Assembly (NCBI GenBank): GCA_905178155.1
Contig: CAJINV010000007.1
Coordinates: forward strand, 4,366,258-4,430,257
Length of the DNA stretch: 64,000 bases
Direction: 5' to 3'
DNA from: Amoebophrya sp. A120
Lineage: Eukaryota > Protista > Dinoflagellata
The translations under genes were made by a program, and so were the position numbers. Below, piece by piece: positions 6,784 through 57,000 of the stretch. How positions within the stretch are numbered: position 1 is the first letter of the stretch; the number at the start of each line of letters is the position of its first letter. The notes under the pieces are model-generated. The model was not told the DNA's origin. It was given only the letters and a program-made list of their open reading frames with translations, and did not search any database.

Positions 6784-9700
6784 CGCTGCGCTTACTTTAC
6801 AAGTGTATTAAGTGAGTATTTCCAATATAAAACTGCTTTTAAAACAAACTTACTTTCTCGACAGAGCGAACGAAGCTGCTTCACATGCAACAAGTTGCAA
6901 ACTAGCAGCAGCATGCATGTCGCGGCGTGGCGAGGATAGACAAAGGCAGCCAACATTGATCAGCAAAACGTAAGAGAGGCAGGTTCCCAACACACTCGCA
7001 AACGATTGCGCTTGATCTTTGTGGCCGCGAGCATGCATCTTTCTGATGAATGTAGAAAATGTCGCATTCTTTTTTGGCGAAAATTAAGCACAAACATGCC
7101 AAAACGATGGCAGTGACAAATTTAACTTTTCTCTGGATAAGTTGCATGATTCCACTCTTGACGTCTGCGTTGGCGTTGCTAGTCTCTTGTTTGACTTGAG
7201 CATGCTGCGGCGCCTCGTTCTGGTCCTGCATCTGCTCCTAGCATCCACATGAAATTCGAGATCAAGCAGTACGTTTTCCTGCTACTGGCTGCCCTTGCCA
7301 ATCTATGCCATGTAAAGATCTGACAATCGTCATAAGAGGGCATGGGTGCTGAGGCTCCAGTGCAGGGACGATGACGAGACTCCAATGCAACAACGAAAAA
7401 CCATGAAGGCCGACAAGAGCAGGGATAAAATTAGTATCCGCGATCCACCAGCGAAGCCGAACCTCTTCTGTGTATGATAACAAGAACTCAACTACTCAAT
7501 GTCGCGTCTATATGGCAGCACATGCCGTCATGACCAGCCCACATATTCAGCTCAACAGCGGAAGCGACTTGATCCACGAAGCAAACATTCACTGGATAGG
7601 CGTGGGCCTCCACCTTGTAGGCTCTTTTCTTGCTCAGCAATCTTCTCCCGCATCGACTCCGACATCTGGATCATGTTTATGCAGACAAACAGATTTGCTT
7701 TTCACCTGGTCACCTCCATGTGTTCAGCCTCATCGCATTTGAAGATGACATGCTTGACTTTGCAATTCATTACATTGATGTTGCGCCATTTATTGACTTC
7801 ACAGGCTTCGCCTGACTCCAACTTCCTACTGCAATTTATGTTCGCAGTATGATTTTCTAATACATAATTTTCACACAGCTTTCGAATACATGCAGATTGA
7901 ACACATGCACGCTCTGGAATAGATCAATTCAAGAATGTTGGTGCATACATCAATACAAATACACACAAAATAGTATCAACGACAACGAAGCATGACAAAT
8001 CTAAAAAAGTCAGGAATTCGGGCAACGACAACTTTGGAAAAACAACTCGACCCCAAAGCTTCATATTGGTAATTTTTGCGCGCTCGAGATCATCACTTCG
8101 CAATTTTGAGTCAGTTGCATAGTCTGGATCCGCCTGCGGGAGACGGGGCAGCTGCAAGTCCACTCTCTCAGGCTTAGCTGTTCTAGCGGCCTGTTCTACG
8201 ACGTATGGGCAGCGAGCTGCAGGTGCAGACACTGAGGCATTGCGGTGCTTTTACTGCAATTTAAAACTACATCATACGAAAAAAGAAAACTCGATGCAGA
8301 AATCGAATCAACTCAAAATTTCGCTTGGATAAAACTCGTAGTAATCATTGTCAGTCTCCTCCGTGTACTCGTCGTAGTAGGCGCGCTGCGTTTATCCAAC
8401 GAAAAAGTGCCCATGTCCATTGTCACGAGTACGTAATCGATCACGATCCTGGGCGCGCTAAATGCCAACACCGATAGGGCGCGTTGCTGCACATACACAG
8501 AGGGTTATCCTATGCGAAAAGCACAACCAAAATTCAGCAGGCAACTGTATCGTCCTGCTCATCATCCGTGCCAAGCAGGTGGGGGGGGGGGGCAGAATTT
8601 TCTGCGGCTCTAACGTAAAAAAGTAATGCATGAATATCGGAGCAAAAACTTTTTCGCTTGATAGCTTCTTCCGCTTCTTCTTGCCGGACTTCCGTTTTAA
8701 TATGGGGAAGAACAAGAAAACTCATGATCCTCGACATCTCTTCATACATCAACTGTGTCCACGTTTGCAGCAAGCTGCCCACTAAAGTACAAAGTTGTAG
8801 GCACAGACAAATTTATGCGACCGCCGGAACGCAACTCTATGCACTACATGTTGAGCCTTTAATCCTACTCCTGGCGGCCAATGTGCAGCCGCAGTTTTTC
8901 TTGCGGAGTTACCGCTGTGTGTGCTTCTTTGCACAACATGAGCCCAGCCCTGCTTATGAGACGCGTCCCTTCTCTCTGGTGAGTGAGGAGGATTTTTCTT
9001 TTTTTCTTCTTTGATATGCTTCTTGCTTCCCGACTTTCGCTGTTCCTTCGCCCCTGCCGCAGCACTTGGAGTTGGAACTTCCAGGTCCGCTGCAATGCTC
9101 GGCCGGTCCGACGACTTTCCCTCTGCGCTCTCGTTCGCGGTACCGGATTCGACTTGCGACCCGGCCTGATGCGTTTGTCGTCCTTGAGTGGGAAGGAGAA
9201 ATCCGAACTCGATGGTAAGAAGAGAAAAAACGGCGAATGAAGACTTCCGCAGAGTCCGCCCCGCAGGGAAGAAAAGGTCGACGTTGTACATGAACATGTT
9301 GATGCGCTTTTTGTCCATGCGGAGAGATGAAGCCAGAGGTCGTTGCTTGTGAAATCGCAACTACAACAAGTCTAACCTACTACGAGCACGACTAGTTGCT
9401 CGCTTTCGACCCAGCAGCTGCTTCCTTCAGGGCGCCACGAATTGGACTCGATTTTGTTCTTTCCAGCGAATGTACACCTCGGTCCGCCTGATTTTTTTTT
9501 TCGATGCCTCCGATTGTCAATGTTCTTGTGGTCGTGTATGCTGCAGCACGAGATTGATTTTTGTAGGATTCTTAGTTCGCGGCTGAGCTGTTTCTTGAAT
9601 GATGAGTCTGCTCGTGGCGTAGTTTCCCAGCTGCAGCTGCTTCCTCAGGTTTATTCTCCTCGATTCTTGAGACGTGCTTCCGTCCTCCTTGCACGACCTA

Positions 9701-11770
9701 GTTTCAATTTAATTGCAATGTAATAAAAATAAAAGGAAAAACCTTAACTCAGTTCTCTTGGATGTGCCACAGCGAGCACGAACTGAGATCGTGAATTCTG
9801 GACAACAAATGAAATCTAGGTGTACTCATGGAATGAATATGAAAACAAAGCGACGAAGCAAAATAATGCAGTTTCTGAGTTGTAATTGTAAATCACAATT
9901 TCAATTAGAAAACCTACCAGAAGTTGCTTTCTGTCGACCCGCCTGCTTCTTCAATTGAACGCGATTGTTAATTTTGTGCAGCTATCTGGCGGTCGTATAC
10001 TACGCGGCTTCACCCCTTGTGAATGTGGTCGTGCAGGCACAAGAGTGGTTTTGATATTTGCGAGTCTTTGGGTGGGTGCTAAATCTGAATGTTAGTGACG
10101 GCTCGGTTCTTGGCGCTTACCAGCCTCCTCACCTTTTTCCTCGCTCCTTGATTTTGGGGTAGGTGCTTTCCTTCTCGTTGCACCTCTTTATTTGAACAAA
10201 TTTTCGTATGAATTATTGAAGTTTTAAATTTTTTATGCTCTGGGGGAGCAATCTGGAGTCGTAAATTTGGGTCAAAGATATATACAGAATGAGAAATTGC
10301 AAGGGATGAATATGATATACTGCGAAATGAAAAAAAAAATGTTGATGGTGGGAATGCAAAGACTTAGAAAGACCGAGATAAGTTGTAAATTTAAATGTAA
10401 TGTTCAACAAGAAAAGCTAAATAAAGAGAAATGCGGCAATGCTTAACGATAAAGAAAAGGGTAATGCTTAAGTTTAAATGTAAAACAAGTCAAAAAGGGG
10501 TAGTACTCTTGTGTGAAATTGAAAACGAAATAGGCTTTTTTTTTTATTTTTTTTTGAATTGATGCAGCTGAGGGCTGCTTGGTAGAGATAGGAAAGTAAA
10601 AGTAGGCGGGGGAGAAATTTTGAAAATGAATTGTGTTGCCGAAAAGCTCCGACTCGATCGATTGTTGTAATTTTTTTTTCGCCTTAAGTGTGAGAGAGTT
10701 GAGTTTGTGAATTCGAAATTAATTGTTGTAAGGGAAACAAGAAGTAGAATAGCACAAGGCTATTATCCGCTAAGACTGACGGTAGATCAAAATACTTCAA
10801 ACTCGACGAGTTGCGTAACAAAAACAACACATACACAAACTCCTTCGATAACAGAAACTACTACAGCGGACGGGTCCTCGTAGCTAGAATTGTACGTGAA
10901 GGGAGCGTGAGTGGCGATCGATGTCACACAGGTCGGCGGGGGAGAAATACTTGACATAATATCAGCCTGCATTGTCGATTTTCGATGAAAGAAACGATAA
11001 CGCGTCGCGATGTTTCGGTCGTGATATGTGTTAGAAAAGGGGCAGCAGTAGGTCGTTTGTTCGTTGAAGGCGCACGATGGCTGGTGAACGTTTTTACGGG
11101 AAGAATGCGTACGAATTAATACGATACCGACATGAAGCCGCAAACATCCGCTTTTGCACGACGAGCGAAAAAATAAAATCAAACCGACCACACAGCTGAA
11201 AGACTCTTCACTGCGAAAAAGACACATCTAAAAGACCGAACGAAAACAGACCACCAGGCACCGACCAGGATTTAGCTCCTGCGGCTGCTATCAGGCCACG
11301 ATTACGCAAAAGACTTGTGTAAGACCAGCAGTCCACTTCATCTGGATCACGAGTCTTTCATCTTGCAACGAAGAGAGCCGATTTTACGACCGAGTCAATC
11401 TTTCACCAAAAAACCGACGGAAAGAGTCCCCGCTTGGGGGCTGAAGTTGGCTACTGAATATACTTAAATAACTATTAGCAGTAAAGCACCAATGCAACAC
11501 ACGCTGAGGCATCAAGTGAAGAGGTCCGAAGAAACCGAGGCTGACTTTCTCCGTAAGTTCGTTCAGACACATTTTCTTTGTCCGAGTCGTCTCTCTTCGT
11601 AGACTTGTCAAAGCACTGCACCTCCCCGTCACGAATAGGGAAATGAAAAGCAGCACTCACACTACAACTTCTTCATGACAACTGTCAATCAACACACGAG
11701 GCTCCTGATGCACACAGTTTCTGAATTCGACTGAGCAGAGTTTCTTTCACCTCCTGCTACTTTGGAGGGT

Positions 11771-11826
11771 TCAACTGATGTCTCGGCACATCAACCGATT
11801 CCTCGGCACATCAACTGATGCCTCGG
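11771..11826. repeat. Tandem repeat, 20-bp unit, ~2.8 copies
   Basis: tcaactgatgtctcggcaca / tcaaccgattcctcggcaca / tcaactgatgcctcgg. Confidence 0.85.
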
Positions 11827-12417
11827 ATTTTCCACCAGCGCCAGCAGTTCGCACCAGTCGGTCCAGTCATCTGTCGAGCGGACGCGTTCGCAAAAAGGCC
11901 TGCAAGAAAAATTGCCGCCTTTACTACCGCAGCCCGGTAGTAATCGAAAATCCGCAACTGACGGTCGTGAGGGAAGCGGATACAGTCCCTTGCTGCGCTT
12001 CCCCTCGTCCGTGTTATCGCAGTATCCGTGTTTTGTCGTTGAAGTGCCACTCGCTCGGCGCTTTCTCCTCGACGTGCCCGATATTCATGTACTCGGGAAG
12101 CTTTTTGAAGCCGAAAGACCGTATCACACAGAAAAGTAGGCCTTCCTTGTCGTGCGTCTAGCTACTTATTGAAATGCTTCGAGACAGGTACAACGAGAAC
12201 GCGCACGCATACTGACTCTCATGATCCTAGACCGACCTGTAGCTGCCGCAACCGAAGAGTGCAAAAGCAATTGGCTTTTCTCCCCGCTCGTCTGTCGGTC
12301 GTCCAGCTCAGGCACGAGCGGGTGCTAGAAGAACAAACAGAAAGTGAAAGACATGCTGAATGATGTTATTTCGGATCTTTCAATGCAAATATCGTATCTT
12401 TTGCAAAGAAGCCAGCA

Positions 12418-14918
12418 TTATTTCAGCGTGATAGGCAATCGCGGCGGCAATCGAAAAGTTGGCACGTGCCCTCGGTTTTGCGCGTCGACGTAAGAAAGCT
12501 CTTGTCCCGGAGACGGTGGTGGACCGCCACCCGCTGCGCCTGGCGTTTTGCCATAGATCGCATCGTCTTCCTGTTCCTGCGTTGGCTTGTCGGGGGAAAA
12601 AGTAGTGAGTCTCTAATGACTCGGGAGGTGCATACAGGAAGCACTCCGAGGTGGAGGTCTCAGAATCGCATGAAAAATTGAAATACACTCTGCAGCTCCT
12701 CCTCGTCCATGCGTACAACTGTCTTTCTATTTCATCAGATCAAATTTATTATGTAGCAAAATCGCAGAAAAATGAAAGGTCAACTGGCCAGTTTGCCATG
12801 CCCGTTTTTCATGACTACGAGCGGCCTTCCTGTAAGTACAGCGACACATACTAGATCCTCCTACTTATTTCACATCCCATATGGCCACCCGAACCTGAGT
12901 TCCGTGTCCAAACTCGGGTCCTCCGGCGGTTTGTAGAAGTCGAAAGGCGGTCTCGTCATGGCATCCGGCGGCACCCGATTTTTCCGCGACGCGTGCTTCG
13001 GAACACCGCCCACCCGGGGCTCGTTTTTGCATTCCATACCGCATGTGTAAAAGTTCTTTTTCGACCCGTCGCCGCAGCAGAGGATCCGTCCGTTTTCGTC
13101 GCGGGGAACGCCTTTCATGCTAAAGCTAATTTGCGGCACGGCAAACGAGGTTATGGGATCGTTTCAACGATTAAAATTAAAAAAATTAATTTTTATTTAT
13201 TCAAGAGGTCATACAAAATGAAAATCATCAGAGTGCGACGTGGAAACTGCCGTCGTCGCGGGCCTCCGAGGTGAACGTCTCCGGATTGTGTTTTGTTTAT
13301 GGTAATGAAATAGCTAGACACGTCCCAACTTCAGCTAGTTAAAATGGTATGTAGTTGAACAAGGTTTAAGAATGCAAAGGAAGCAGGAAGCTTGGCTCCG
13401 TCTTTGCGGCCCACAAGCTGGGCGTCTGCGTGGTCCCTCGCTCTCCGGCTCGTCTGGGGCCCCGTCACGTAGCAGCGACGCTATGCTGGTTTCGACCGGT
13501 GGAGTTTATGGGGCAATGTGATGGCTTTCGAATACATCCCAAGAGGAAGCTGGTGCGGCAAAGCCTGAAAATGTGTGGCGTTGTAGTATTGAGATCTCGC
13601 ACCTCAACGGACGGAGCAACTTTCGTGGTTTTGGTCATCAGTTTCAGAGTGGGAGTTCCTGAGTTCCTTTTAGAGCTGGAGGATCGCGATTAATTAGACG
13701 CCCAGAGACGTCCAAAAAGACGTCTATTTTCCGCGATATGGAAATGGATTGACTAAGTGGGAATAGCCAAAGTTAATGACGTCCCTGGGGACGTCTCTGG
13801 GAGACGTCCCGCAAGCTCATTTTTGGCATCAAAATGAGGCGCGTCAAAAGTTGACGCTTTTCCTTACGAAAAAGCTACTCTTTAGGATGCTTTTGCCCAA
13901 CATATCCGCAGCGTCGCCTCCTCCACCGTTCTGCTCGCGATACTCCTGCAGGGCCTCACTGGGCTCCGTGTCGGTTGGCGTCGCCTTCTCCGGGCCCAAG
14001 ATATCGGCCAGCAGCTCTTCTCTGCGCGCGTGGATCCCCCCCATGTATTTCCGGCGTCCGGAGGGGGCGCGGAGGAGGGCCCGGATCGCCCTGGCGACGT
14101 TCTCCATACCAAGGCGCTTGGTATTAGAACTGCTCCTGCCGCGATGACAGACTCCAGCTTCCATATCATTTCAACTAGCTTAAGTTGGGACGTGTCTAGT
14201 TATTTCATTACCATGAACAAAACACAAGCCGGAGATGTTCACCTGGGAGGCCCGCGACGGCGGCAGTTCCCGCATCACCTTCTGATGATTTTCATTTTAT
14301 ATAACCCCTTGAATTGCAAAAAATTAATTTTTTTTATTTTAATCGTTGAAACGATCCCATAGAGGTGAAGGCTCTGTGGGTTTTGTTTCGGAAAATCATG
14401 CTGTTTGTGTTTTCTGCAGAAATAGGACGAAGGTGGTCGTGTCTGGCGCGGCTCTCGCAGGCACCGCTGCTGTTCGGGGTAACGGCCGCGACCTCTTGTT
14501 GGGACAGCAATCCGCCGTCGGTATTGATAGAAAAAAGTTCCTGCAACCTGAGCAATGGCATCTTCGTCTGACTGCGATTTGTATTTTTCGTTTTATTGCT
14601 TGCAACTCCGAAAGGATTTTGCCGATTTCTCTTTCTGGTGGTTCTATCTTGCTAAAATGAAATCGGTAGTCCAACTAGATGTGGTGATCGACGACCACAA
14701 GGCCCTTCCTCGCTGCGGATATGGAGTACTGATGTGTACGAAATGCGATGATGAATGTTCTTGGAAGAGGAAGACGAGGGGGGACAATGCTTAATAACCG
14801 TTCGCCAGATCGAAATGAAGCACTGCAGTGTTAAACACATCTGCGCTTTGGCTTTTCCCTCACAAAAACTGCGCAGCCGCGACCGCGACTCGTCGGCAGG
14901 GCCGGTTTTTGCGGCCAA
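12418..14918 (-). CDS. Hypothetical protein, 5' end unresolved; one GT-AG intron (14652-14798) and two TIR-element introns
   Basis: Removing 14652-14798, 13152-14361 plus one TSD, and 12588-12881 plus one TSD gives one continuous 280-codon frame: ...ISIWRT|QDRTT...KTHRAFT|SFAVPQ...LRFGWP|TQEQEDDAIY...PITLK*. Confidence 0.65.
12588..12881. mobile_element. Degenerate TIR introner-like element (294 bp) acting as a non-canonical intron
   Basis: Flanks tggct (12583-87) and tggcc (12882-86); ends TGT...ATA; imperfect TIR (gggaaaaagtagtgagtctcta vs reverse complement gtgaaataagtaggaggatcta); excision restores frame. Confidence 0.7.
13152..14361. mobile_element. 1210-bp DNA transposon with ~200-bp TIRs and 5-bp TSD, acting as a non-canonical intron
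   Basis: TIRs 13152-13351 and 14162-14361 (TATGGGATCGTTTCAACGATTAAAA...); TSD gaggt at 13147-51 and 14362-66; excision restores frame. Confidence 0.93.
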
Positions 14919-22000: not shown

Positions 22001-25000
22001 CAAATTTAAAAATGTCGATTTACCGACACCGTTGGGCCCGACGATCGCGATGCGGCTCGTCGTGTCACATCCGAAATCCAGCTCATCCAGCAAATAGGGC
22101 TGCTCCCCGTCGTAGGAAAAGCACACGTCGGACACGTTCAAGCCGCCAATACCGGAATCTTGCCCGAGGCCGAAGAAGTTGAATTTGACAATGTAGTCCT
22201 TGATCTTTTCGTGGATGTCGTTGATACTGTCCAGATTGAACTTTTTCTTCACCTGCTCCTCCGCTTTGTCCTTCGCCATGCCGGATCGTTTCAGCATCTT
22301 AAACTCGTCCTGCATCTTCTTCAACTCTCTGGCATGCTCCAGCTTCTTCTGCCCAAGCATCTTCTTAAACCCGGAGTATCCCCCACGGTAGTAGAAGAGC
22401 TGCTGCTGGTCCAAATGGATCACGTCGGTGCAAATCGCGTCGAGGAAGTCGGCGTCGTGGGAAACGCAAATGACTGTGTGGGGGTATTCCTCGGAAAGGT
22501 AGTTGTCGAGCCAGAGGACCGCGTCGAGATCCAAGTGGTTGGTCGGTTCATCGAGAAGGAGAAGTTTGGGCTGCAGGAAAAGGGCTTTCGCGAGGGAAAT
22601 GCGCATACGCCAACCACCGGAGAAGGTTTCGACCTGAGCGAGATTTTCGATGGTTGAAGATGGTGTTCTGAGCGTGATCTGATGCTGACTTTCTTGAAAA
22701 AACAAAAATGCTAAATGAATATGAATGCTTTTGTTCGAACAGGTAATGGCAGATATTCCGCAATCATGGCCAATGAATCATCACCAATAAAAGCACTTCC
22801 GCTATTTGGTATACCGTCTGCGTCTGCATTTTCTTGGTGAACCCGAGGCCGGTTAAAATTTTCCTCACGGTCGACTCCAACGCGTTCGCGTTCCGCGCGT
22901 CCAGCTCGGCGGAGACTTCTTCCAACCGTTGCCTAGTTTTTTCCATCTTATCCTGTGCAAAAGTATCGCACTCGTATAAATGCAAGTCTTGCATTACAAA
23001 TCTTTTTCATAAGGCAAATCCGCATTACAAATTTTATTTCTCATGCTGAGCCAATTTGTAATGCATTTATACGAGTACGATACTTTTGCAGTTCATACAT
23101 CTCCACCGCGTCCAATTTGCTGTCAGCATCGTCGGCCGATTCCAACCTCTCCATCAACGCCTTCTCCTCGTCTAACAGTTCCACGCACTTCACGTCCGAA
23201 GCCATCACCTCCTCGACGACGTTTTTGTTGCTCGCCTTCGCCTCCTGTTCCACCAGCAAGATGTCCCAGTCCAGCGGCACGGGCAGTTCCCGCTTCGCGA
23301 TGTGCCGTAGCAGCGTCGTCTTACCCATACCGTTGGGCCCGAGAAAGCCGTACCGGTGTCCCTGCACGACTTTGAAGTTTGCGTTTTTGAACAGCCAGTT
23401 TCCGGCGGCGGCGAGGGAGAAGCCCTCACACACCGCGGAGTCGCCGGAGGGCGGGTGGATGACCTGCCCGCCGGGTACGACGATAGAGAAAGCTTTCAAA
23501 TCACCAGTAGCGGCATCGTCGTCCGGGTTGTGATACCTGATAGATTGTGGGGGGGAGGGGATCATTTGCGCTGCGAAAGAGCTTGGTTTCGTATGTATGA
23601 GGCGTAGGAAAGCACAAGCAACACCTACAAACACGGTGCTACGGCTACCATCAAAAAAAAGCAGTGAAATAAAGAATCAATACTTTGTCTCCGCCGTGTG
23701 TCTTTCCAACATTTTCTTCTCCTTCGCCGTGAGTTTTTCCCCATTCGCTTGTCGCTGTTTCAGATCTTCGACCTTCTCGTCCAAAGTCTTGTCGTTTCTC
23801 GCATCGACCACCAGCCCGACGTTGACCGCACTGGATTCCATATCAGCGTTCTCCTGTGCCTCCGTCGCCGCGAAGGACTTCGCGTGGAAATCCGGTTGGA
23901 AAAAAAGGAGTGATTTGGACTCCTCGAGGGTGGTTTCAAATTCGATCTCTTGCTCTTCGGGTTTCAAGATTTTTTTCTGTTTTATCGTCCCGTAGTACCC
24001 GGCGCTGGTTTCGACACCCCGTTCCCCGGTGTTATCATTTAAACTCGTCCACTTCTTCACCGCGGGGTCGACGTTTGCCGTTGGGGCCATCGTGAGAAAG
24101 AAAACCGTGGTTGGCCTGGCGCAAGTGAAGGTCAGTTTCTTCGCTTTCCCCGAGCAACGGAGAAAACCGAAACCGGTCGCGGGCGTGAACTCCCCGAGGG
24201 AAAGAAACTCCTCCGCATTTTTCGTGCCCGCAGCGACACCGGCGCGAACCAAGCCGGACCCGACATTACGGACGGACGGTTGGAGCTTTGGGTCGGCCTG
24301 AAATGGAGAAATCGGAATGATGGTGGAAGGTTTTTTTCCGAAAATAGGTTTCTTTCACTACGGTATACGGCTGCTACTAGGAACTCATGGAACGTAACGC
24401 AAGATGTAGATCCATCGTGCGTGAGAAAACGTGTTTTTATTTCTGGTGAAATTTGCAATTACACAATGAGTATCAGAATCATCAGCTATCTGTATACATC
24501 TGTCGCCAGTGTCTTGAACGTTCCCGTCGCGAGCAGATCGTGGACCACGCGCCCTTCCATCATGTTTCCAATTTTGTCGGAGACCAATGAGTCCCCCTTC
24601 AGGTCCAGCTCTTCCAAACTTCTGTCTTTCTCCCCTCCGGCGTCGTCCAACCCGGCGAACATGTCCTTTGCCTTCTCCGTTTCCTGCTTCTTTTTCTCCT
24701 TTTCCGCGTTTTTCGTTTTCTGTTCCTGCTCTTTTTTCCTCAAGAGCTCCTGCACGATAGACGTGTTGCCCGACGCATCGTCGTCGTTCATCTGGATCTT
24801 TTTCGCCGCCGCCTGCTTGTTCGCGGTCTGGTCCTTATTTCGCTTGTCCAGCGCTTTGTCCTTGTCCTGTTTCAGGTAGTTATCCGCGTTGGTCAGGTCG
24901 GTTTTCTTGATATCCCCGACGGAATCCCACATCGTCATCTCCTCCTCGTCCGAATCGCCGCGGCGCTTTGGCCGAACTTTTTTCTCCTTCTTCTCTGCGC

Positions 25001-45000: not shown

Positions 45001-48000
45001 GTGGTGGCTGCAAAGCTGAAGCAGCTTTGCCCGCTTCTCCAAGGCCGTGTCAGAGGCTGAAGATAAAGCATTGTTTCTGGAGCTACCGCTCAGGGGTGCA
45101 CCAAATGGATCAGCAGGTGGTCCTCGTGCGGTACCAGTGAACGTCGAGCTTCCAGCAGCTCCACCTGGCTCCTCCGTAGAGCTGGTACTCGCACTTTGGT
45201 AGTTCATCGCGTTCGCTTGCGCGAGGTAAATTGCGCGCTCCTCTGCGGTGTGGGAGACCGCGATCCAGTGTTCTTTTGTCACGATTTTGTCCGCGTCGGT
45301 CACGGCGGAATTTTGGCGGACGAACCTTTGCAGGAATTTCTCGCAGTTTTCCCTAAAAACTTTCGACCGGTCCCACGGGTGACACTCCTGCAGGTATTTC
45401 AGCCGCTGCTTCGCAAACGCGTTTCGGCTGGCCGTGAAGTAGCAGTCCCGCACATTCGCGCAAAACCCCTTACTGACGTTCTGCACGTGGTGGCTGTAAG
45501 CGCCAACGGTGTTTTGGTTTTCCGTGAAGCCCTCCTGCAGTCGCGCGCCGTAGACCCCGAAGGGCTCAATCTGGAACGTCGCGGGTTCGCTGCCGTTGTT
45601 CCCCCCGCGGCCTCCTCCGTGCCTGTTGTTCCGCCGCCGGGCTTCGCCGTACAGAAAGCTGTCTTCGCTTGGCGTGTAGTCCGACATGGTCAAATCATCG
45701 GAAAACCCTTCGTCGTCCTCATCCCCGTCCCGGTCAAAGTCGGTGTCGAGCTCCGATCGCATGTCGTTGTGATTCACGTTGCTGGTCGTGTGCTCCGACT
45801 GGAAGGAACTGTCAGGCGAGGATTGCATCAGAACATCTTCTTGCACTTCTTCGCCCAGCAGAAGGTCTCCGGGGAGTTCCGGCTGGTGAATATAGTCATC
45901 ATCGTCCTCCTCCGGGGGGAGCAAAGTTTCCACTGCACCGGCGTTCGCAGTGGTGGTGTGTAGAGCTCTAGCTGTACTCGCAGACGATCCACCGGCTTGT
46001 GCTTGTTGATTATTTGCAGTGCCTCCACTTCTAGCCGCGTTGTTCGCATTGTTGGCAATCAGCCCAGCCTGGCGCAGCACCGCGTTGCTTGTCGCCCCCC
46101 GGATTGGCGCCGCTGAGCCCGCACGTGCTCGATTTATGCCACTGTGGTCACCGTTCGCCCTGCCGTGGTTCAGCTGATTGAGCAATTTCCCATTCCCGCC
46201 AGCAATGAAGAGATCCGCGGTGTGGTTGTGCGTGCCGCAGTGCTGACAGATAAACGCCAGCTTCGTACTGGGTTCGTGCGACTGCGGAAGAACCAAAGAA
46301 TTATTTTCCGCAAACTTCACACTCTTCACCGTGAGAGATCTTCCATCTGGCACGTTCCCGGAGACGTAGGGCTCTAGACAGCAGTTGCACTTCCACTCGG
46401 TCATCGGCAACAAATCGTACTCATACTGCCTATGATCGTTGGATCCTCTCCGCCCGCCGTCCGGTTTCGCCGACTTCTGACCGCGTTTGAAGTTAAAGTT
46501 TGGGCAACTCACCCCAAGCGGATCCATCACTGCGGACAAGCCAGAGCGGGGGTCTTTGAGGTCGGCTCTCATCGCTAAGCGGTGGAGCCGGTCCGCGTAC
46601 TCGGCTTCCACTTGGGACACGCCACAGAGGTCGACACCAAATAGCGACGCGGTGGCGGCGACATTCCGAACCGAGTCGACTTGCGGCGTGCCGGTTAGCC
46701 CGAATTTGCTGAAAGCCTTCAGGTTCAGAAGCGAGGAGACCTGCTTGTCTTCAAACGCCTCCAGCTCGTGGAACTCGTCGAAAACAATCCTGCGGAAGTA
46801 AAATTGCTCCAGTAACGGGAACAGCAGTAGCCGGTATTTGTCGTTTTTTATCGAAGAAGATGAAGAACTAGAACTACTTCCGCCGGCAGAGGAAGATTTC
46901 TTTGGATACACACTGTCCATGATAGTCCGGCTCTTCGACGCCGGTGGCACAACAGAATTTCCGAACAACTGACTGGCCTGCGACGCGGCTGCAGACGGCT
47001 TTGACCGCCCGCGCTTCATTACCCCCGGCTTAGACTTGCTGGCGTCGGCGTCGACAAGGATGTTGGTGCTGTCAACATCCATCATGTCGCTACCTGTCGT
47101 GCCACTACCTCGTCCAGGTACGGAAGAGGTTTTTGCGTTGGTCTTTTGATCATTCTGTTCTTTGTCTTCCTCCGCAACCTCATCCAAATCCACCAAAACG
47201 TCCTCCTTTACCTTTTCCTTCAGCGCCCAGGGTTTAAACCTGACCGGGAGTTTTGAATGCGTGCTACTCATGAAGACTCGCGTGTTCTCCCGTAGTTTCG
47301 TAATGTACTCGTGTTGGTGGAGTTGGAAGTCCGTGTCGTCTTTTTTTTCCTCCTTTTTCTTCTTCTTCGGTTTAGGTCTACGAATACCAAAGACATCGAC
47401 CTCGTAGTCCATATCATCATCCGAAGGCGATCCGGTTAAGTCGTCGTCTTCAAAGTCGTCGTTGTAGTACGGCCGATATCCCAGTGAGTTGTGGAATCGG
47501 CCCAACCTCTGATCCGCCTTTTTTCGCCGGGCTTGCTGCTCTTTTTCCAGCTTTTTCTGCTCTTTTTCCTTCTCCTTTTTTTTCTTCTCCTCGAGTTTTT
47601 CCTCTTTTAATTTGTCGTCGCCTAATCCGGACAGTTCTTCGAAACGCGACTGGTGGACGGAGCTGTATAAAACCCGGTACGTCACGAGAATTACGTCGTA
47701 CTGCTGCAGATCGTACACTGTCCGGATCTTCAAGGGGGAGATGTTCTTGCAAACCAGGATATGCAATACAAATTTCCCGTACAACATGTACAAGATGCAT
47801 CACAAATTTCACCAATTTGGAGCGTCAGATTTGTCATGCTTAACTAGGATCGAAGCCAAGTTTTGTCATACAGAGACCGCATTTGTACGAGTACGTCTAC
47901 GTGTACGGGAAATTTACTGTGGATACAGGATCTTCAGCTTGTTGTTCGGCAGGAATTTTTCGATCTCGGTGCTCCACTGGTCGATGAGGTGGGAGGGGAC

Positions 48001-51000
48001 GAGAATCAAGGTGGTCTTCGGGGCTGGGAAAAGACCGGCGGATTCGTGAGTAGAAGTCGAAGGAGAGGAACGATTTGTACTAGAACTGCTGTTCGTCCAC
48101 AGCATCTCTTCCTCTGAAGCCGAGGAGAAAGGACCACCGTGCGCGGAGGAACTGCTGGAGCTCGACACAAAGCCTCGTCCTGATGCGAGATTTTGTTCAC
48201 TCGCGTTTGATGTTCCAGCGGCTGCACCGTCTTCCCTTAGCAAGATCTTGCACATTTTCGCGAAGGTCAGCTGCTTTTTCTCTTCTTTGCCTCCTCGCTT
48301 AGTTTCGTTAGCATCCTGCTGCTCAACGGTTGACTTATCTCCGGCTGCGCTACTCGCGCTCGCCGAACTGCTGCGTTCCTGAGTAGGAAGCTCGTCTTGC
48401 TCAGGAGCCGCGGTTTTCATTCCTTGTTTCTCTTTCTTCATTGCCTGCTGCTTCGTGCCTCCTTTGTTGTCCTTCTTCATAACATTCGTGCTAGAAGAGC
48501 CAGCTGCTTCTGCTGCAACTGCCTTTGCTGCAGCTTTCTTGCCCTTCTTGCTAGTGTCCTGCTTCTCGTCCTCGTCGACTTTTCGCTTCTTCAAAGGCGG
48601 CCTGCTTGCATTTTTCGTTTTCACATTGTCGTCCGCCAGCAGGTCGTCTTCTTCGTCTTCGATTTCATCCTGGTCCTCCGCTTCTGAGTTTTCTGCCGAG
48701 GAGTTGGAGAATTGTTGTTGGTTCAGCTTCAGATCCCGCTCGCTCTCCAACTGAAACCGGTCTTCCTTCGACAACTTTCGTTCCATCACTGTAGTTGAAG
48801 AAGCTCCTCCTGCGTAATTGTCTTCTGTGTCTCTGTTCGCCAAACGCAGCCAATTTTTGATCAATCCCAAGTCCATCGCCTTGGAACTTGCCAACAAGCC
48901 AATACACGTCGCGGTCTTTCCGAAGCCAATTTTGTCCGCCAGAATACCGCCGCGATTGTTGTAATTCGCCGTCATGTTGAATTCCAAAGACCACGTGGCC
49001 TGCGACAAAGGGCAATTTTTGATCGCCTTGTACTCCGCAACACGGCGGTGAAAGGAGTCGCTCGGATCGTGTCTGTGCGAGCCTTCCAGTCTTCCGCTGT
49101 ACGGCTGGTGTCCCTGGAATCCTCTTTTCGCAGGAAGATACCGCTTGTACTCCACTTGCAAGTAGTCGCTGTCGTGCTCCCGTTTCTGCATCCAATAGAG
49201 GGAGCGGAGTTGCTCCGGGCGGAGCGGGTGGTGCCTCGACCAACCGGGGGGCATTTCGCCGGTTGGGTCGTTGTCGTTATTCATGATTTCAAACCGCTGG
49301 AAGTCCTTGGTCTGACTTTGACTGTGGAGGTCCTTCTCACTGTTATTTTTCTTGTTCTTTTTCTTCATCGCATTAGTTCTGGTGTTCAGAGGACCTCCGG
49401 TCAAGCCGAGCAGGCCCTTGTTGTCTTTTGACGATGATTTCATGGCTTTACTTGATGCGCTCGCGCCTCCTGCCCCCGTCGTTCCGGCGAGAAGTTGGTC
49501 CTGCTTCTTTTTCATCTCCAAGATCGTTTTCCGGTCGATCACATAGTCCCTGCTCGGCGGCCGGCAGCTGTTCCAAATCGCGACGCCAGCCTCCAGCTTC
49601 GCGGGGGCAAACCGGATTCTTTCGAGAAAAAAGCGCTGAAAGATCCGGCCGAATTCCACTCTAATTTGCCACTGCACGTGCTGCTCGCGAAGAAAGTTGC
49701 ACTCCTTCAAGAAGTTAACTTTTTGTGCGTTCACAACGTCCAGCACCAATTTTAACGAAGTGCCGGTAAGGTCCTGATCACCAGTGTCGGCCTTCTCCTT
49801 ATTTGCAGAAGCTCCGGCTGTTCCCGCTTTGCCTCCAGTAGTCGCAACTTTTTTCATCGCTGCTTTCGCTTTTGGTGCGGCTTTTGCTTTCGCTTTGCTC
49901 TTCGCGGCCGGTCCAGTTTTTGCTTTTGCAGCAGCTCCAGATGGTTTGCCATTTTCTGGCTTAGATGCAGTCTGCGTTTTGACAAAACGCAGTACATCGT
50001 CCTCCAGAGCGGCCTTCTCTTTTTCCTTCGCCAGCCCGTTACAACCGGCGAGCATCCGCTTGTAGACGCGATCAATGGCGCTGGCTGCTTCCTGGGTGTT
50101 TGTGACATCCACAGCACCCCCGCCAAGGCCCGCCGGGTTGTCCTTTTGCTTCTGCAGGGTGGTTAGTGTCGGTACTAACAAATGTCGTTCCGTATTGATC
50201 ACCTTAATGTCGATCGGAACGACGCCCAGTAACGAATTGTGCGCCTGCTCCGTGTTGTTCTCAATGCTTCCCTTCCCATGGGGTTGGTAACTTGACAAGA
50301 AAGAAAAATTGCTGGCGGAGTGATCGGACTTGACGAACCGCGGCACGCAGTCGTCCAGCCGGTTGTCGCGGATCAACAGGCGGTCCATCAATTCCAGACG
50401 ATTCATCGCCGGGTTAGCCCCCTCGTGGGCTCCGAGACCGTCTTTTCCCAGGCCAAACACCGGGTTGAATTTGGTTTTGTCCAACGAGAGCGTCGCGTCC
50501 GGGTTTTCTACCGCGACCGCCATTTTCTGCAGAAAGTCGTCCCGGAGAAAGTTGACTTCGTCGTTGATCCCCTCATTCAAGTGCATGCAGTGGATGTCGG
50601 AGTAGAACCGAAGGTGCAGCCACTGGAACCGTATGCAATGCAAATTTCCCGCACATGTACAAAATGCATGACAAATTTCGCTAACTTGCAGTGTCCAACT
50701 TGTCATGCTAGACTAGGACTGAAGGCAAATTTTGTCATGCAGAGACTGCATTTGTACGTGTACGGGAAATTTACTGTGGATAAACCGGGTCACCGGCCGG
50801 TCCTCGTTTTGCGACTTCCACCCCGTTATCAAATGCAAAAATGTCTGGGTCTGGAACAAAGAAACTTGTCATGCTAAATCTCAATCACGTACGAAGTCTG
50901 TGTTGCATGATTACCAAAAGCTGTCCACTTTTGACCTCATCGAGAGGCAGTTTCTCATGCAGGATAGGCATGATATAACTCTCACGGAGTCTGTCATGCT

Positions 51001-54000
51001 ATGCCCTACATACCAGACCGCTTGGGTCATGGAAAACCTGCATGACAAGTCTGGCAGTTTTCAAAGACCCAGACATTTTTACATTTGATACCCGTGCTCA
51101 AGTGCGCACAGTGCGCCTGTTCCCACTGCGCCTTGCGCTGCGCTTCCGCCCGTTGCCGATGGTGGAAATTCATGAGCCCGATCTTCCGCTTGTCCATGCT
51201 GAAGATGCTCGGCGGCAAAGGGGCATTCTCCTGTTCCAGACGCGACGGGCCAATCAGCAGCTTCTGGCCTTGGGTCGCGAACACGTCGGTCAAGTCCGTC
51301 TTGTCCTGACCAACGAGGAAGCAGGGGTTCTGTTCCAGGGCGAGAGCGGTCAAATTAGTCGGGATCGAGAAGTCTTGCTGGTGGTCGGGTTGATGTTCTG
51401 ACTTCTGATTTTCGTTGTCGCCTAAATCGCGCTTCGATTTTCTTCCATTTTTTTCTGCTGTTTTATTATTTCCGCCGACGTCCTTCTCGTGGTCCTTCTC
51501 CATCTCTTTGGTGGATTTCATGCTCTTTGCTCGACCTCCTGCAGCTGTGGAAGTTCCGATTGACGGTGCGTTTTTCAACAGTAATTCCGTGATATCCACC
51601 GGAAACCGCTGCTGAAAGGTCGCAGAAGATTGCGAAGTAGAACTCGTCTCTTGTAAGAACGAAGGCCTGATGTTGTCCAAGGAGGACGTCGCCTTGTGCT
51701 TCTTCATCGTCTCTCCCATTACGTTTTTGAAAGCGTTGGCAAAGAAGGGATTCTTGCTCACCACGGTATCGTCAAAAGCACTGCTGCAATTGTTTGCTTT
51801 ACCGACTACCTGAGAGGCGGCGTCACCCGCGGCTTCACCGCCTGCAAGAGAATCAGTCGCGGCTCTCTTCGTCGCGCCCGAGCACAATTCCTGCAACGGC
51901 ATCAGACTCGGTGTGCAGTTCGCCACCGAATCCGGCCGGATTACCCGCGCGTGTGTTTTGTTCATGTCGGTTTTGTGTTTCGTGTTTGAGGGCTGCGGAG
52001 TGCCGGACGCCATTAAATCGACCACAACGAAATCGGAGCCGGTTGCTGGTGTCTCCTTCACATACAACTCCATCTTGCTAGAAGTTGAAGTCGCATCTTC
52101 TACGCCACCATCTTCCTTTTCCTTATCTTCCTTCCCGTCCGTGATCGTTAACTGACTAACACCTTGTCCTGCTCCTGCTTTTTTTCCCACCGCGCTCCCT
52201 CGGATCGGTAAAGTTTTGTGCACCTGGTTGTAGGTGGCGGCGAATAGATCCTTGACCGCCTTGCAGCAGTCGTTGGTCGCCCCGGGGAATTTGAAAAAGC
52301 TGGGCAGATCGATGACAAAGTTCGCGAGGTTTTGCAGCATGTCATTCGTCATCTCCACGTTCAGCGGTGAGCCCTGGTCCCAGTCCGACCCGGACACGTT
52401 GCCGTAATTCAGAGATTTGTAAAGATTTTCCACGTCGGTCAGGAAGGAGAGCTCCTTGTGAAAGTGCGAAGTGGGGTGCTGTCGAGGTGCAACTATGGTG
52501 CTGTCAAGCGATTTCAACATCTGGAACTTCTGATCCGTGGTCCTTGCGTGATTCATCGCGTTGCTATTTATTTCCTCAAAATCCACATCCATGTCGTTAC
52601 TTTCACCTGCAGGACCGGTTGCTTGTTCCCCGGTAGTCGCCATCGGTTCTTGGCCTCTGGGATGAGCGTCAAATCCTGGAATCTGCGGGGCCAAATGTCC
52701 GCTCGCGGGAAGATTTTTCGTCTGCGACGCCAGCAAAATTGGTTCCAACAACTCACAGAACTTCAACAAGTCGACGTTGTCTTTCGTCCCGAAATCGTCC
52801 GTCATCAGCATTATCAACATCCCGACCATCGCACGAAGCACTTTCTGCCTCACTTCAAAAACCTCTCGATTTTGAGGTAGCGAGAAGATCTTGTCGCGCA
52901 GCAAATTGTAGTCGTGGAGAGGAAGGGGAGGTGGCAGGGAAGCAGCTGCAGCAGCAGTGGCGGATGACCGGAAAGTTGTACCATACACATCTAGATCTTC
53001 TACTTCTGCGTGGTCAACATCACTACCGTTGGTGACGTCATTCTGCTCCGACGCACGCCACGACGCTAGGATCTGCTCGTAGTTTTCCACAACCTCCTCC
53101 ACAATACCGTGCTCCACCAGTCTGGCAATGCAGTGGTCCAGCGCGAACCAGACCTTGCAGAAGACCATTTTGCTACTGAGCGGCTTGTCCGCCACCCCAA
53201 AATTTGCCGGGTTGCTGTCCCCCTCCAGAATGGTGGCCGCCGTGTCCTTCATAAGGTCCTCCATCTTGAACTCCCTGTCTTTATTGGAATACTGCAAGCT
53301 GTGCTGCCACCGCGGAGAGGGCATGGTGTGGTGTAACCTCACGAAGTCGCCGGTGCCGAGGAAGTTCTCGTTGATGTAGCAGTTGTCCAGTTTCACCGCT
53401 TTGCTCATCTTCGGCGCATTGAAAGGCGTGTGGTGGTTATGGTGTTTCGACGGCGCAGCCTTTGAAGATGCTCCTGAGGTGTTTTTGCTACTACTTTTTT
53501 GCTCAGCACCATCTTTCTTGCCGTCCGCTGCAAAGTTCGGCTTGTTCAGAATGTGCGAGCTGGTAGTCAGAATGCTCTTCTCTGTCGTTTTCAACATGCT
53601 GGCCATATCCCGGCGGGTTAGCGCGGGGAACTTCACGATGTCGTCCGGCTGCGCCAGCCAGGAGCTCACTGCCTCGTAGTAAACGACCTCAGAGGACGCG
53701 AAATAACTGGATTCATGCGGGTAAGCGTGGATAGCGACCTCTCTAGTAGTTGCAGTTGTGCTGCCCGCCGGCGCTGTTGCAGAAGAAGTTAATATGTTGT
53801 CTCCAAAAGTTGCCCTGTTTTCCTCGTCCTCGTCGCGCACGACCACCTGTTCAATGTCAGAGATCAAGCAGGTAGTTTTATTGTTGTGACCAGAAGGCGT
53901 TATCTGCTGCTTGAACAGCTTCGAACTTTTCCCGTTTTTACTGCCGTTTCTGCTCTTGTCTTTCTTCTCGCTTTCCGCCCGCTTGTGCTTTTTCGCGGGC

Positions 54001-57000
54001 GAGTTCTGCTTCTTGTTTATGTTTTTGCCCTGCATATTATTTGGCACGCGCTTCATCGCCACAACGCTTTGCCAATTGGCCACTCGCTTGTACACATGCT
54101 TTTGGCCCGCCCGGACGCCGGCCAGAAAGCTGAGAGGCCGGGGTTTGCTACTCTCCTCTTCCTCGTTATCGGTATCCCGATCCTCCGCATCCTCGTCCTC
54201 AATATCGGAGTTTTCGGACCGTTTCTCACCAACAGCATTATGCTCCTTGTCCTTGCCAGCACCGCGATGAAGCAGCTTTCCAGTTTGGAAAGGATGATCC
54301 GACGATTTGATGTTCTGCCTCTTTTCATACTCAACTTCCATTTCCCTATCCCGTTGCCTTCTTTTCTTCTCTTCCGCTTCCCTCTCCCTCCGGTGCAGGT
54401 TGTTGACCAAGTCAAATTCCCTCAGATCAGCGTGCGGGCAGTGTGTGCGGAACAGAAAAGGATCAACGCCCGTCTGGTTGCAATCCACGTCGTTAGTGGG
54501 CTCGCATTGCTGAATCTGCATGACCGCCTGCTTCAAAAGGGATTTGTTCTTCTGGAGGTGCATTTTTCTGCTGCTCCTACTAGCACCAGTAGTGGGTTCT
54601 TGTCCACCATCACTTTGGCAGGAATTCTGCTCCCGTTCTTGCAACATGCGCTCGAGCACGTTCAGCATCGGAGCGGTGTAGATGTCCGAGGCTGCTGTTG
54701 ACGGTGGTCGTCGCTCGCTCGCCCGATTCTTCTCGTTCTTCAGAGAGCATTCGTAGACGAACCGCAACTGCTCGATGTATTGCCTTGTTGAAGGACTCAA
54801 ATCTCGCACGGATTCGTAGCGGGCGGGAGTTATTCCTTTATTTTCCTGCAGCATATTGTTCAATTTTGCAGGAGCCTTGCTGCTAGAAGACAAAGAGGAA
54901 CCGACAGCTTGGTTCGTGCTGGTGTTTATAGTTCCGCACTGTTCATCCGCAAATCCGAACTTCTCTAGCTTCTGCTCCATCTCCGACAAAGCTTCCCTTA
55001 GTTTCCCCTTCACGTCCCCAGCACCGCCGTCGGTAGTGGTCCCGCGAAAAAGCATTCGGTTCAATTTGATCCAGCCCATATGCGGATCGACTTGGTCCTT
55101 ACTGAGAATGTCGGCGAATTTATTACCACTCTTGTTCTCCGCTTTGGACTTCATTTCTTTCTTACTCTTATCCCCCTGCTCAGCCTCGTTTTGCGCCGCT
55201 AACTCCTTCTCCCTTTTCTCCAAATCTTCTAGCAGGTCCAACAGCCGCTTGTTCGGTCCACATTGCTCCAGCGGTATCTCGCCATCCAGATAGCTACCCG
55301 CTCCTCCTGCTACCTCCTCCTCAGCACAGTCGTCCCTCCGTTCACAGATCGGGACGCGGTGCACGGACAGCGCAAACCGCCACATAATGTCGCTGATAAT
55401 GCTGTCCGGGCTATTTCCCACTTCCTCCTCTTCTTTCCGAGAGTCGTAACTTTTCATAGCTGCGTCCGCCCGTAAATTCACGTTTTTCTGATTGTCTAAC
55501 TGGAGAAACGTCCGCAGGGGGTTCTTCCACTTTCCGAGGAGCATCCAGTTTTTCAACGCGTTTTCAATGCTCTCGCGGAGGAACTGCTGATTCCGCCGGT
55601 CGAACGACTGCCGGCTTTTGTAGAAAGAACTGTCTTGGTTGTACTTGGTTGTGGAAAATTTCGTGCCGAGTGTGACAACCCGGGTCACGCACTTCAAGAA
55701 TGCGTTTACTTCCTCCAAAAGAAGCTCGGGAAAGCGAAAAAAGGTTCTTGTTCTACTTGCCGCGTCGAGGTGCTGCTGTGTTGATGAAGACAGAGCATTT
55801 TTATGCCCGCCGGTAGTTGTTGAACAAGACACTAAACCACGACGTTGTTCCGACGAAGACGAAGATGAAGATCCTGACAAGAAGTTCTTGTTGTCACCAT
55901 CAACTTTGTCGAAGTCAAACACCTTGAGCGTATCCCGGTAGCTGAGCGGGCCGCTTTTGTACTCGTAGTCCAGTCTGTAGTTCGTGTTGTGCTTGTGCGT
56001 CCGCCTCTCGTCCTGCGTGTCGGGCTGTTCGGTGAACCTGGACCGCGTTAAGCCGGACAGTTTTTCGAACCGCATGTCTTCATACACCAGCTGCTCCCCG
56101 TATCCACAGTAAATTTCCCGTACACGTACAAATGCGGTCTCTGCATGACAAAACTTGCCTTCAATCCTAGTCCAGCATGACAAGTTGGACTCTGCAAGGT
56201 AGCGAAATTTGTCATGCATTTTGTACATGTACAGGAAATTTACATTGCATACCCCGTACTCGGGCGGCAATTCCTCCTCCCGGGTCGCTTCGGAATGATG
56301 GATGTGTCAGGTTTGAAATCGTCAAAGTTGAAATAGTTTGAGTTTGTCATGCATAAAACAGATACCAGTCGGAAGCCCACTTATCAAGCGGCGCATGACA
56401 AATTTTCCGAGCACCGGAATCCAATTTGTCATGCTGTTTGGGCACAGAAGATTGCTTTTGTCATGCGAGTTTAGTAGCTCTATTTCAAACCCTAAATAGG
56501 CTCATAATCTGCCTCATTTGCCATCCCGGCAAGACAGGCACTTCATGCCTTGCACTTTATGCATGAGAAATCATTTCAACTTTGTCGATTTCAAACCTGA
56601 CGCTTCCATAAGAATCCTCGTCCGAGTAGAAATCGTCCTCGTCAGAAATAAAGCTGTCGTCGTCATAGTGGCGGTCTCGGTTGTTCCCCCTCCGATGGTG
56701 CTGTGCGTAGTTCCGGTTGCCGGCCGGCCCGACCTGCTCGCCCATCGCCGCAAACCGCATCGCAAGCTCCGCGTGGCTGGTCGGCGGCCGCAGGATAGAT
56801 TCATTTATGGTTCCCACGACGTCGCTGTTGTCCTCGTTTTCATCAACTACACCTTGTAAGATAGCTTCAACATCATCCAGCACCTGATTGTCACCGACAG
56901 TTTGTCCAGGAAAGTTTAAGTTATTCGTGCTATTGTTTTCTTCATCTCGTTCTCGCCGTCCTGTGATGTTGAGTCCGTTGTTCTGGTCTCCTCCAAGTCC

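What the first reader, a model, noticed from the sequence alone, without database searches (positions are those of the whole stretch)
13147..14366. 1.2-kb long-TIR element with ORF-like cargo: a lead to the autonomous partner
Seen: same TAT...ATA and 5-bp TSD signature as the small elements, but with ~200-bp TIRs and an ~810-bp interior. A GC-rich 106-aa ORF (13844-14164, minus) starts at the inner edge of the right TIR, and a weaker 87-aa ORF (13430-13693, plus) converges from the left. Between them is a cluster of GACGTC palindromes (~13696-13810). I see no DDE triad. Inference: this is an internally deleted derivative of a two-gene autonomous transposon, or a Pack-type element with captured sequence. 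It is still apparently removed as an intron.
Basis: partly seen in the sequence, partly recalled or inferred. Interest (0 to 1): 0.78.

Follow-up and report, generated by a model that had tools for sequence, protein, structure and literature searches.

The report
Spliced transposon carrying a transposase fragment
A 1.2-kb repeated mobile element in what is likely a marine Amoebophrya parasite is missing, to the exact base, from likely messenger RNA of the gene it interrupts, and it still holds a piece (part of an exon and one intron) of a large gene that likely encodes an unclassified hAT-like cut-and-paste enzyme, tying these odd introns to a candidate mover.

Summary
The element has a 5-bp duplication (GAGGT), 200-bp TIRs (177/200) and an 810-bp interior. 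It is skipped exactly in 3 of 3 RNA-like contig sets, not in the DNA-like set, and it has other insertion sites. The 106-aa ORF is not a gene. It is 90 codons from the middle of a ~1,100-aa Amoebophrya protein family, read through into that gene's own intron. Intron position and sequence match a relative (0/1000 shuffles). The GACGTC cluster lies inside that intron, and the 87-aa ORF scores as non-coding. The family keeps invariant D, D, H, RW and E in hAT order. Hermes appears in two fold searches in the same register, but at tied, weak Z, and Pfam gives nothing. So it is hAT-like, not filed as hAT. The fragment lacks all three predicted catalytic acids. Best reading: a non-autonomous deletion derivative that behaves as an A120-type introner. 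A ~5.7-kb relative exists but could not be read. The scan has already noted full-length hAT-like TAT…ATA elements on other DNA of this genome (unreviewed).

The parts
13147..13151 (+). Left target-site duplication GAGGT
13152..13351 (.). Left TIR, 200 nt, begins TAT
   Evidence: 177/200 to the right TIR
13352..13619 (.). Non-coding-like interior of unknown origin; likely retained end region of the parent; holds most of the spurious 87-aa ORF
   Evidence: codon model negative in all six frames; no family match at protein level; shared with a diverged copy in X1 up to 13619
13620..13890 (-). Retained intron of the transposase-like gene (GC donor at 13890, phase 1; 3' end near 13620-13625)
   Evidence: same position as the GT..AG intron of L001 and as the P0002/P0004 break; global alignment to the L001 intron 95 vs 46+-10, 0/1000 shuffles, 0/452 real windows
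13707..13808 (.). Cluster of five GACGTC hexamers in two inverted arms, inside the retained intron; a similar repeat sits at a similar offset in the L001 intron
13891..14161 (-). Exon fragment, 90 codons, equal to about residues 304-392 of the 1170-aa family member P0004; keeps the conserved His, lacks the predicted D, D, RW and E
   Evidence: phmmer E 1.8e-10, 43% to P0001; profile positions 302-395, the only family match in the element; codon model +11.4 bits
14162..14361 (.). Right TIR, 200 nt, ends ATA; its inner edge cuts the exon and supplies the ORF's ATG
14362..14366 (+). Right target-site duplication GAGGT
14362..14726 (-). Host gene exon upstream of the element (ATG at 14561)
   Evidence: X3 record 9; frame open across three junctions
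12882..13146 (-). Host gene exon downstream of the element
11695..12582 (-). Two further host exons (12433-12582 and 11695-12115) separated by non-GT-AG skips of 299 and 317 nt

Best explanation
The element is a repeated 1.2-kb insertion with 200-bp inverted ends and a 5-bp duplication, absent to the exact base from likely mRNA of its host gene, and it is likely a non-autonomous deletion derivative of a large cut-and-paste transposon whose ~1,100-aa enzyme is likely hAT-like. Shown: the ends, the duplication, other insertion sites, exact skipping, and a 540-bp piece of genomic gene (exon fragment plus next intron) from an Amoebophrya protein family. Inferred steps: (1) a parent element carried the whole gene reading inward from one end. 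(2) Deletions removed about the first 300 codons and everything after the intron; the ~5.7-kb relative may be the one-deletion intermediate. (3) The remnant cannot make a transposase and is moved in trans by an intact family member that recognises its ends. (4) In the host pre-mRNA the TIRs pair into a long stem that brings the two duplication copies together, and the non-GT-AG pathway described for Amoebophrya removes the element plus one copy, restoring the host frame.
For: Anatomy. Exact skip in 3 of 3 RNA-like sets with cover and none in DNA-like X1. The host frame is open for 268 codons across three junctions on the minus strand, +16.9 bits against -75.4 for the plus-strand shadow. Other copies: four X1 contigs leave the ends into other flanks, and inside contigs have depth 157-196 against 44-45 in the flanks (depth is only a rough guide). 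Family: 3 hits among 1.84 billion representatives; P0003 and P0004 are labelled Amoebophrya AT5.2, and four more full-length relatives at 35-67% identity were found. Conserved intron position and sequence show a genomic, not cDNA, origin. Invariant D174/D175, D283, H309, R403-W404 and E671/E676 in 6 of 6 follow the Hermes order D180, D248, H268, R318-W319, E572 (PMC6027215 section 3.4; PMC4763223 passages); 9 of 5000 column shuffles pass, with windows set after seeing the data. Hermes 8edg ranks 1 (Z 5.9, rmsd 5.2, 171 aligned) and 4 (Z 6.3, rmsd 4.3, 154 aligned) of 48,161 chains; both alignments start next to the family His and Hermes H268. Language-model neighbours carry hAT domains at 0.81-0.83, a lead only. 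5-bp duplications are known for hAT5 (PMC12730594 passage). The TIRs pair in the predicted fold.
Against: No Pfam family passes for any of 6 members, and no PDB sequence match was found. Both models are low-confidence (pLDDT 46.8 and 53.1). Foldseek gave nothing at E<=0.001, and the Hermes Z-scores are under 8 and tied with helical bundles. The C of CxxH is not conserved. No complete family member was seen between TIRs; L001 covers only the 5' part of the gene. The 4.6 kb inside the long relative could not be read. The diverged copies carry 33 C>T/G>A against 8 reverse changes (p 1e-4), which suits decay rather than an active master. The GCATNACAA-type word is in 7 of 7 small elements tested but not in this element, so its enzyme need not move the small ones. 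The contigs are unstranded, and the plus strand offers a perfect GT..AG register because the duplication holds AGGT (0.6% of 5-mers).
Confidence: 0.68

Rival explanations
1. Pack-type capture: an unrelated TAT...ATA element picked up an exon-intron piece of a host (or domesticated) gene family, so the cargo says nothing about its own mover.
For: The piece comes from mid-gene and abuts the TIR, which needs two deletions under the derivative model. No family member was shown inside TIRs. An X1 joint 13619->14160 on opposite strands shows a rearranged copy.
Against: The donor family is multi-copy and divergent (six full-length members at 33-67% identity) and has a DDE-type motif order. Capture of a transposase-like gene from among thousands of host genes would be a coincidence.
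Confidence: 0.15
2. The element is a derivative of its own transposase gene, but the enzyme belongs to another or a new DDE group (CxxH-type relatives, or IS3EU-like by its ends), not to hAT.
For: The ends read TATGG..CCATA, which fits the TAYGG..CCRTA ends reported for IS3EU (PMC12730594 passage). There is no hAT Pfam hit, the fold scores are weak, and the TIRs are far longer than the 8-20-nt repeats of typical introners.
Against: IS3EU has 6-bp duplications (same passage); here it is 5. The invariant RW and the long helical insertion follow Hermes, and Hermes is the only cut-and-paste DDE transposase listed near the top of either fold search.
Confidence: 0.12
3. The host transcript runs on the plus strand, and the element is an ordinary spliceosomal GT..AG intron that takes both sites from its duplication.
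For: Plus-strand register 3 is GT..AG, and a plus-strand frame is open for 336 codons.
Against: That frame is the antisense shadow of the minus frame and scores -75.4 against +16.9 bits (the model was trained on the window's long minus-strand ORFs). The two neighbouring skips in the same contig are not GT..AG in any register, and the longest ORFs of the window lie on the minus strand.
Confidence: 0.05

Closest known systems
Introner elements of Amoebophrya sp. A120 (Farhat et al. 2021, PMC7789003; Gozashti et al. 2025, PMC12130899)
   Same: TAT start, inverted ends, 3-5-nt direct repeat over the junctions, repeated, removed without GT-AG sites. Kilobase-size A120 families are already listed (fam103, fam169, fam196, fam200).
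   Different: 200-bp TIRs against 8-20 nt. At 1215 nt it is outside Farhat's 40-1000-bp window. It carries an identifiable piece of a transposase-like gene, whereas Farhat found no transposase in A120, and no A120 family has the final class hAT in the rows of Gozashti's table that I saw.
hAT superfamily (Hermes, PDB 8edg/4d1q; hAT5 group with 5-bp duplications) and its non-autonomous deletion derivatives
   Same: Order of invariant D, D, H, RW, E; predicted long helical insertion after the His; 5-bp duplication as in hAT5. hAT-derived introners are listed for plants, fungi and Symbiodinium.
   Different: No Pfam hAT or BED match, ~1,100 aa, wider motif spacing, no conserved C before the His, TAT ends, 200-bp TIRs. 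Membership is not shown.
IS3EU DNA transposons (PMC12730594)
   Same: End letters TAYGG..CCRTA; TIRs over 30 bp.
   Different: 6-bp duplication there, 5-bp here; no evidence for an IS3-type enzyme.
Maize Ds elements acting as introns; Pack-MULEs (both recalled, not checked in a paper)
   Same: Deleted transposon spliced from a host transcript; long TIRs around gene pieces.
   Different: Removal here restores the host sequence exactly without GT-AG sites, and the cargo looks like transposase, not host gene.

Membership tests
Amoebophrya A120-type introner | Inverted repeats at both ends, starting TAT | tested here: met
   rule from PMC7789003 section 11; the repeat is 200 nt, longer than the 8-20 nt described
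Amoebophrya A120-type introner | 3-5-nt direct repeat overlapping the exon-intron boundaries | tested here: met
   5-nt GAGGT; the joint is ambiguous over 5 letters
Amoebophrya A120-type introner | Repeated elsewhere in the genome | tested here: met
   four X1 contigs leave the ends into other flanks; depth about 3.5-4.4 times the flanks
Amoebophrya A120-type introner | Removed from the transcript | tested here: met
   exact 1215-nt skip in X3, X4 and X6 contigs (RNA is the tool's guess; one study, two samples), none in X1
Amoebophrya A120-type introner | Non-GT-AG splice sites on the sense strand | tested here: inconclusive
   0 of 6 minus-strand registers are GT..AG, 1 of 6 plus-strand registers is; strand is inferred from the codon model, contigs are unstranded
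hAT superfamily (parent enzyme) | Invariant D, D, H, R-W/F, E in Hermes order | tested here: met
   6 of 6 full-length relatives; 9/5000 shuffles with post-hoc windows; the C of CxxH is not conserved
hAT superfamily (parent enzyme) | RNase H core with helical insertion domain like Hermes | tested here: inconclusive
   Hermes Z 5.9 (rank 1) and 6.3 (rank 4), tied with helical bundles, insertion domain only; low-confidence models
hAT superfamily (parent enzyme) | Pfam hAT dimerisation or BED-finger domains | tested here: not met
   0 of 6 members match
hAT superfamily (parent enzyme) | 8-bp duplication (5-bp in hAT5) | tested here: inconclusive
   5 bp: fails the general rule and fits the hAT5 exception
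hAT superfamily (parent enzyme) | Phylogenetic placement among hAT transposases | not tested
   no alignable reference set was fetched
Autonomous transposon | Intact transposase between the TIRs | tested here: not met
   only profile positions 302-395 of 1171 are present
IS3EU | TAYGG..CCRTA ends | tested here: met
IS3EU | 6-bp duplication | tested here: not met
   5 bp
Pack-type element | Cargo derived from a host, non-transposon gene | tested here: inconclusive
   the cargo family has transposase-like motifs, but its genomic setting could not be read (no genome held; L001 shows no ends)

The most novel reading that the evidence does not exclude
This is an introner caught part-way through its origin. 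A deletion series (intact parent, ~5.7-kb copy, 1.2-kb copy) of an undescribed hAT-like family with TAT ends and 5-bp duplications would show that these ends alone make any insert, even kilobases carrying a transposase exon and a nested intron, precisely removable without GT-AG sites. The family would then be the enzyme source that the literature could not find for the A120 intron invasion.
Probability: 0.35. Interest if true: 0.75.

Novelty: new variant of a known kind. Interest (0 to 1): 0.52.

Why it matters
Farhat et al. (PMC7789003, discussion passage) concluded that the lack of transposases in A120 rules out general transposase-driven spread of its roughly 30,000 introners. In the rows of Gozashti et al.'s table that I read, the mechanism of the A120 TIR families is 'Unknown'. 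An element that is both cleanly skipped in RNA-like contigs and carries a piece of a transposase-like gene links the intron behaviour and a candidate enzyme family in one sequence. It gives concrete ends and a concrete protein family for an excision assay, and a 1.2-kb substrate with a nested intron for testing how the non-canonical splicing reads the ends. It does not show that this enzyme moves the abundant small elements.

Tried and rejected
No genome is held, so copies could not be collected. A TIR 21-mer gave 0 matches in metagenome contigs. The family alignment gave no confirmed locus in metagenome (116 pattern hits, 0 confirmed) or viral contigs (7, 0 confirmed). The word-based search for longer homologues of the ORF found none of 377 candidates. 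The exact ORF is not on record, and the Atlas gave no usable hit for it. One search covered only 30-47-residue proteins, so it is no evidence. Foldseek on both models was blank. The sequence after the intron (13619 downward) looked by eye like the next exon but failed at protein level (318-736 of 1000 shuffles as good); it was rejected beyond perhaps 20 nt. A first, stricter local alignment of the two introns was only marginal (26/2000 shuffles, 6/460 windows); three other scoring schemes then gave 0/1000, so the choice of scheme matters. An apparent second-Asp motif inside the right TIR had no support (281/300 shuffles). No Rfam match. The bacterial promoter scan was at chance level and is not relevant. 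No listed run is on record as RNA, and raw-read runs X10 and X11 laid nothing. By-sequence look-ups in the scan's notes were blank for the element, P0003 and P0004; that index finds only close relatives, so I cannot say whether earlier full-length candidates belong to this family. No homologue search was run for the host protein beyond Pfam on two exon ORFs (none passing).

Full report
Observation. The element spans 13152-14361 with GAGGT on both sides, 200-nt TIRs matching at 177 positions and 810 nt between them. Six small elements of 149-264 nt in the window have the same TAT...ATA ends and 5-bp duplications, and excising them gives an open minus-strand frame over 25 codons each side in 5 of 6.

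Organism. No genome is held. The TAT rule matches the A120 strain of Amoebophrya (PMC7789003 section 11), and the two full-length homologues that carry an organism label are from Amoebophrya AT5.2. An Amoebophrya of the A120 type is therefore an inference.

It is removed and it is repeated. Contigs of three runs guessed to be RNA (X3, X4, X6; two samples, one study) skip exactly 1215 nt, the element plus one duplication. DNA-like X1 has no such joint, and raw-read runs X10 and X11 laid nothing. The X3 contig also skips 299 and 317 nt further on. Joining its four pieces gives a minus-strand frame open for 268 codons (238 from the ATG at 14561, counted) that scores +16.9 bits in a codon model trained on the window's long minus-strand ORFs; the open plus-strand frame is its shadow and scores -75.4. 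On the minus strand none of six possible registers is GT..AG. On the plus strand one is, because the duplication contains AGGT; I treat this as chance but could not test strand directly. In X1, four contigs leave the element's ends into other flanks, and contigs inside the element have depth 157-196 against 44-45 outside, which suggests a handful of copies (the tool warns that depth is not copy number).

The cargo. The 106-aa frame is coding-like (+11.4 bits; held-out true frames median +16, 99th percentile of wrong frames -2); the 87-aa frame is not (-23.8). A full phmmer scan of 1.84 billion representatives gave 3 hits: P0001 (43%, E 1.8e-10), P0002 and P0003. These lead to six full-length proteins of 1058-1170 aa. 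The element holds only profile positions 302-395, and the rest of the window has no significant family match. The genomic contig of P0001 (L001) carries the family's exons in order and has a 277-nt GT..AG intron in phase 1 after M-L-S-Q. The element has a GC at the same place (13890) after M-L-G-K, and P0002 parts from its spliced cluster-mate P0004 at the same codon. The 270 nt after that point align end to end with the L001 intron (global score 95 against 46+-10; 0/1000 shuffles; 0/452 real windows; a stricter local scheme was only marginal). So the ORF is 90 codons of exon plus 15 codons of intron read-through, started by an ATG from the TIR edge, and the GACGTC cluster is part of the gene's own intron, with a similar repeat in L001. 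Homology ends near 13620-13600.

What the family is. Six of six members keep D174/D175, D283, H309, R403-W404 and E671/E676. This is the order of Hermes D180, D248, H268, R318-W319, E572 (PMC6027215 section 3.4; PMC4763223 passages); 9 of 5000 column shuffles meet the same pattern, with windows chosen after seeing the data. Two low-confidence models (pLDDT 46.8 and 53.1) gave nothing in Foldseek. In the wide search Hermes ranked 1 (Z 5.9, rmsd 5.2, 171 aligned, model 308-610 on Hermes 267-460) and 4 (Z 6.3, rmsd 4.3, 154 aligned, P0004 307-592 on Hermes 266-423) of 48,161 chains, tied with short helical matches. Language-model neighbours carry hAT domains at 0.81-0.83. Pfam and PDB sequence searches are blank. 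These weak lines agree, so I call the family hAT-like (about 75%) and do not file it as hAT. The retained piece is the start of the predicted insertion domain, which would explain the missing triad.

Longer relatives. X1 record 6 (5175 nt, depth 41.6) follows the element from 14091 to 13640 with 53 differences and no gaps. A joint of the same depth returns to 13473-13392 after unknown letters, which implies a copy of about 5.7 kb (that both pieces are one record is inferred from the depth). It shares the cut at the right TIR, so it is at best an intermediate that lacks the first 300 codons; its unread 4.6 kb could be the downstream exons or an unrelated insertion. A diverged left end (record 4) and a joint from 13619 to 14160 on opposite strands point to another arrangement, possibly parent-like. 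The diverged copies are biased to C>T/G>A (33 to 8), as expected of decaying copies. An abundant RNA-like contig (2641-2923 nt, depth 82-105 against 8-17 for the host contig) keeps 14078-14361 with another flank and more than 2 kb of unread sequence; it is unexplained.

Mechanism. Shown: ends, duplication, repetition, exact skipping, and a genomic gene fragment. Inferred: origin by two deletions from a transposase-bearing parent, movement in trans, and removal guided by the TIR stem (predicted fold, no shuffle control at this length) through the non-canonical pathway, whose chemistry is unknown. One limit: the 9-letter word that an earlier scan note reported in small elements is present in 7 of 7 small elements tested here and absent from this one, so this family's enzyme may serve only some introners.

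Literature. PMC7789003: abstract, passages, sections 10-12. PMC12130899: passages, a term search of 12 of 14 supplementary files, part 16 of file 8 and 60 of its 63 'hAT' places; kilobase A120 families are listed, none seen with final class hAT, though fam135 has hAT5/hAT6 end hits; files 13-14 and the unread A120 rows may bear on this. PMC9860276, PMC12730594 and PMC4763223: passages. PMC6027215: one section. PMC6004678: term search, nothing found. Roy et al. 2023 was seen only as a reference. Searches for dinoflagellate + introner + hAT transposase gave 0 papers and for Amoebophrya + transposase + non-canonical introns only Farhat; the library lacks most subscription papers. Maize Ds introns and Pack-MULEs are recalled. 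The scan's own unreviewed notes report 10-11-kb hAT-like elements with the same end rule elsewhere in this genome; they gave me the hAT5 lead and are not counted as evidence.

Verdict. Real feature; an A120-type introner of unusual size whose interior is a fossil piece of a likely hAT-like transposase gene. It is a good lead to the autonomous partner, not the partner. New variant of a known kind, interest 0.52.

Noticed in passing
window 14078-14361: RNA-like contigs of 2641, 2664 and 2923 nt (X3, X4, X6; depth 82-105) keep only the right TIR plus 84 nt, with a different outer flank, 4 differences and over 2 kb of other sequence inward. X1 shows no branch at 14078, and the plus-strand letters before it are AG. 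It could be a spliced transcript of a long copy or partial retention in another gene.
   Followed up: partly
window 13586-13619 and 14118-14160: One X1 contig (depth 38.8) joins these on opposite strands, close to both breakpoints of the gene piece; possibly a parent-like or inverted copy.
   Followed up: partly
window 12583-12881 and 12116-12432: The host gene's two other skips are non-GT-AG and begin TAT on the minus strand (the 317-nt one after a one-base shift); the 299-nt one shares its first 8 letters with the long element. They look like older introners.
   Followed up: partly
L001 1544-1820: The intron of the related gene keeps a tandem repeat resembling the GACGTC arms although the proteins are only 43% identical; a conserved element within the intron, perhaps a binding site.
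   Followed up: partly
window 22949-23097, 47760-47925, 50632-50782, 50827-51090, 56101-56251, 57140-57391, about 56297-56610: Seven small elements of several families all carry the GCATNACAA-type word, several with pairs 31-34 nt apart.
   Followed up: partly
window 13614-13764 and 14001-14151: An estuary metagenome (X9) holds two 151-nt pieces of the interior with 0-1 differences at depth 2-2.6, so the family likely occurs in the wild.
   Followed up: no
window 8102-8320: A 219-nt stretch with 10-nt inverted ends and a 4-nt direct repeat but no TAT end; may be chance or another element type.
   Followed up: no
window 13716 and 14135: The window differs from the majority X1 contigs at these two sites: copy-specific changes or assembly errors.
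   Followed up: no
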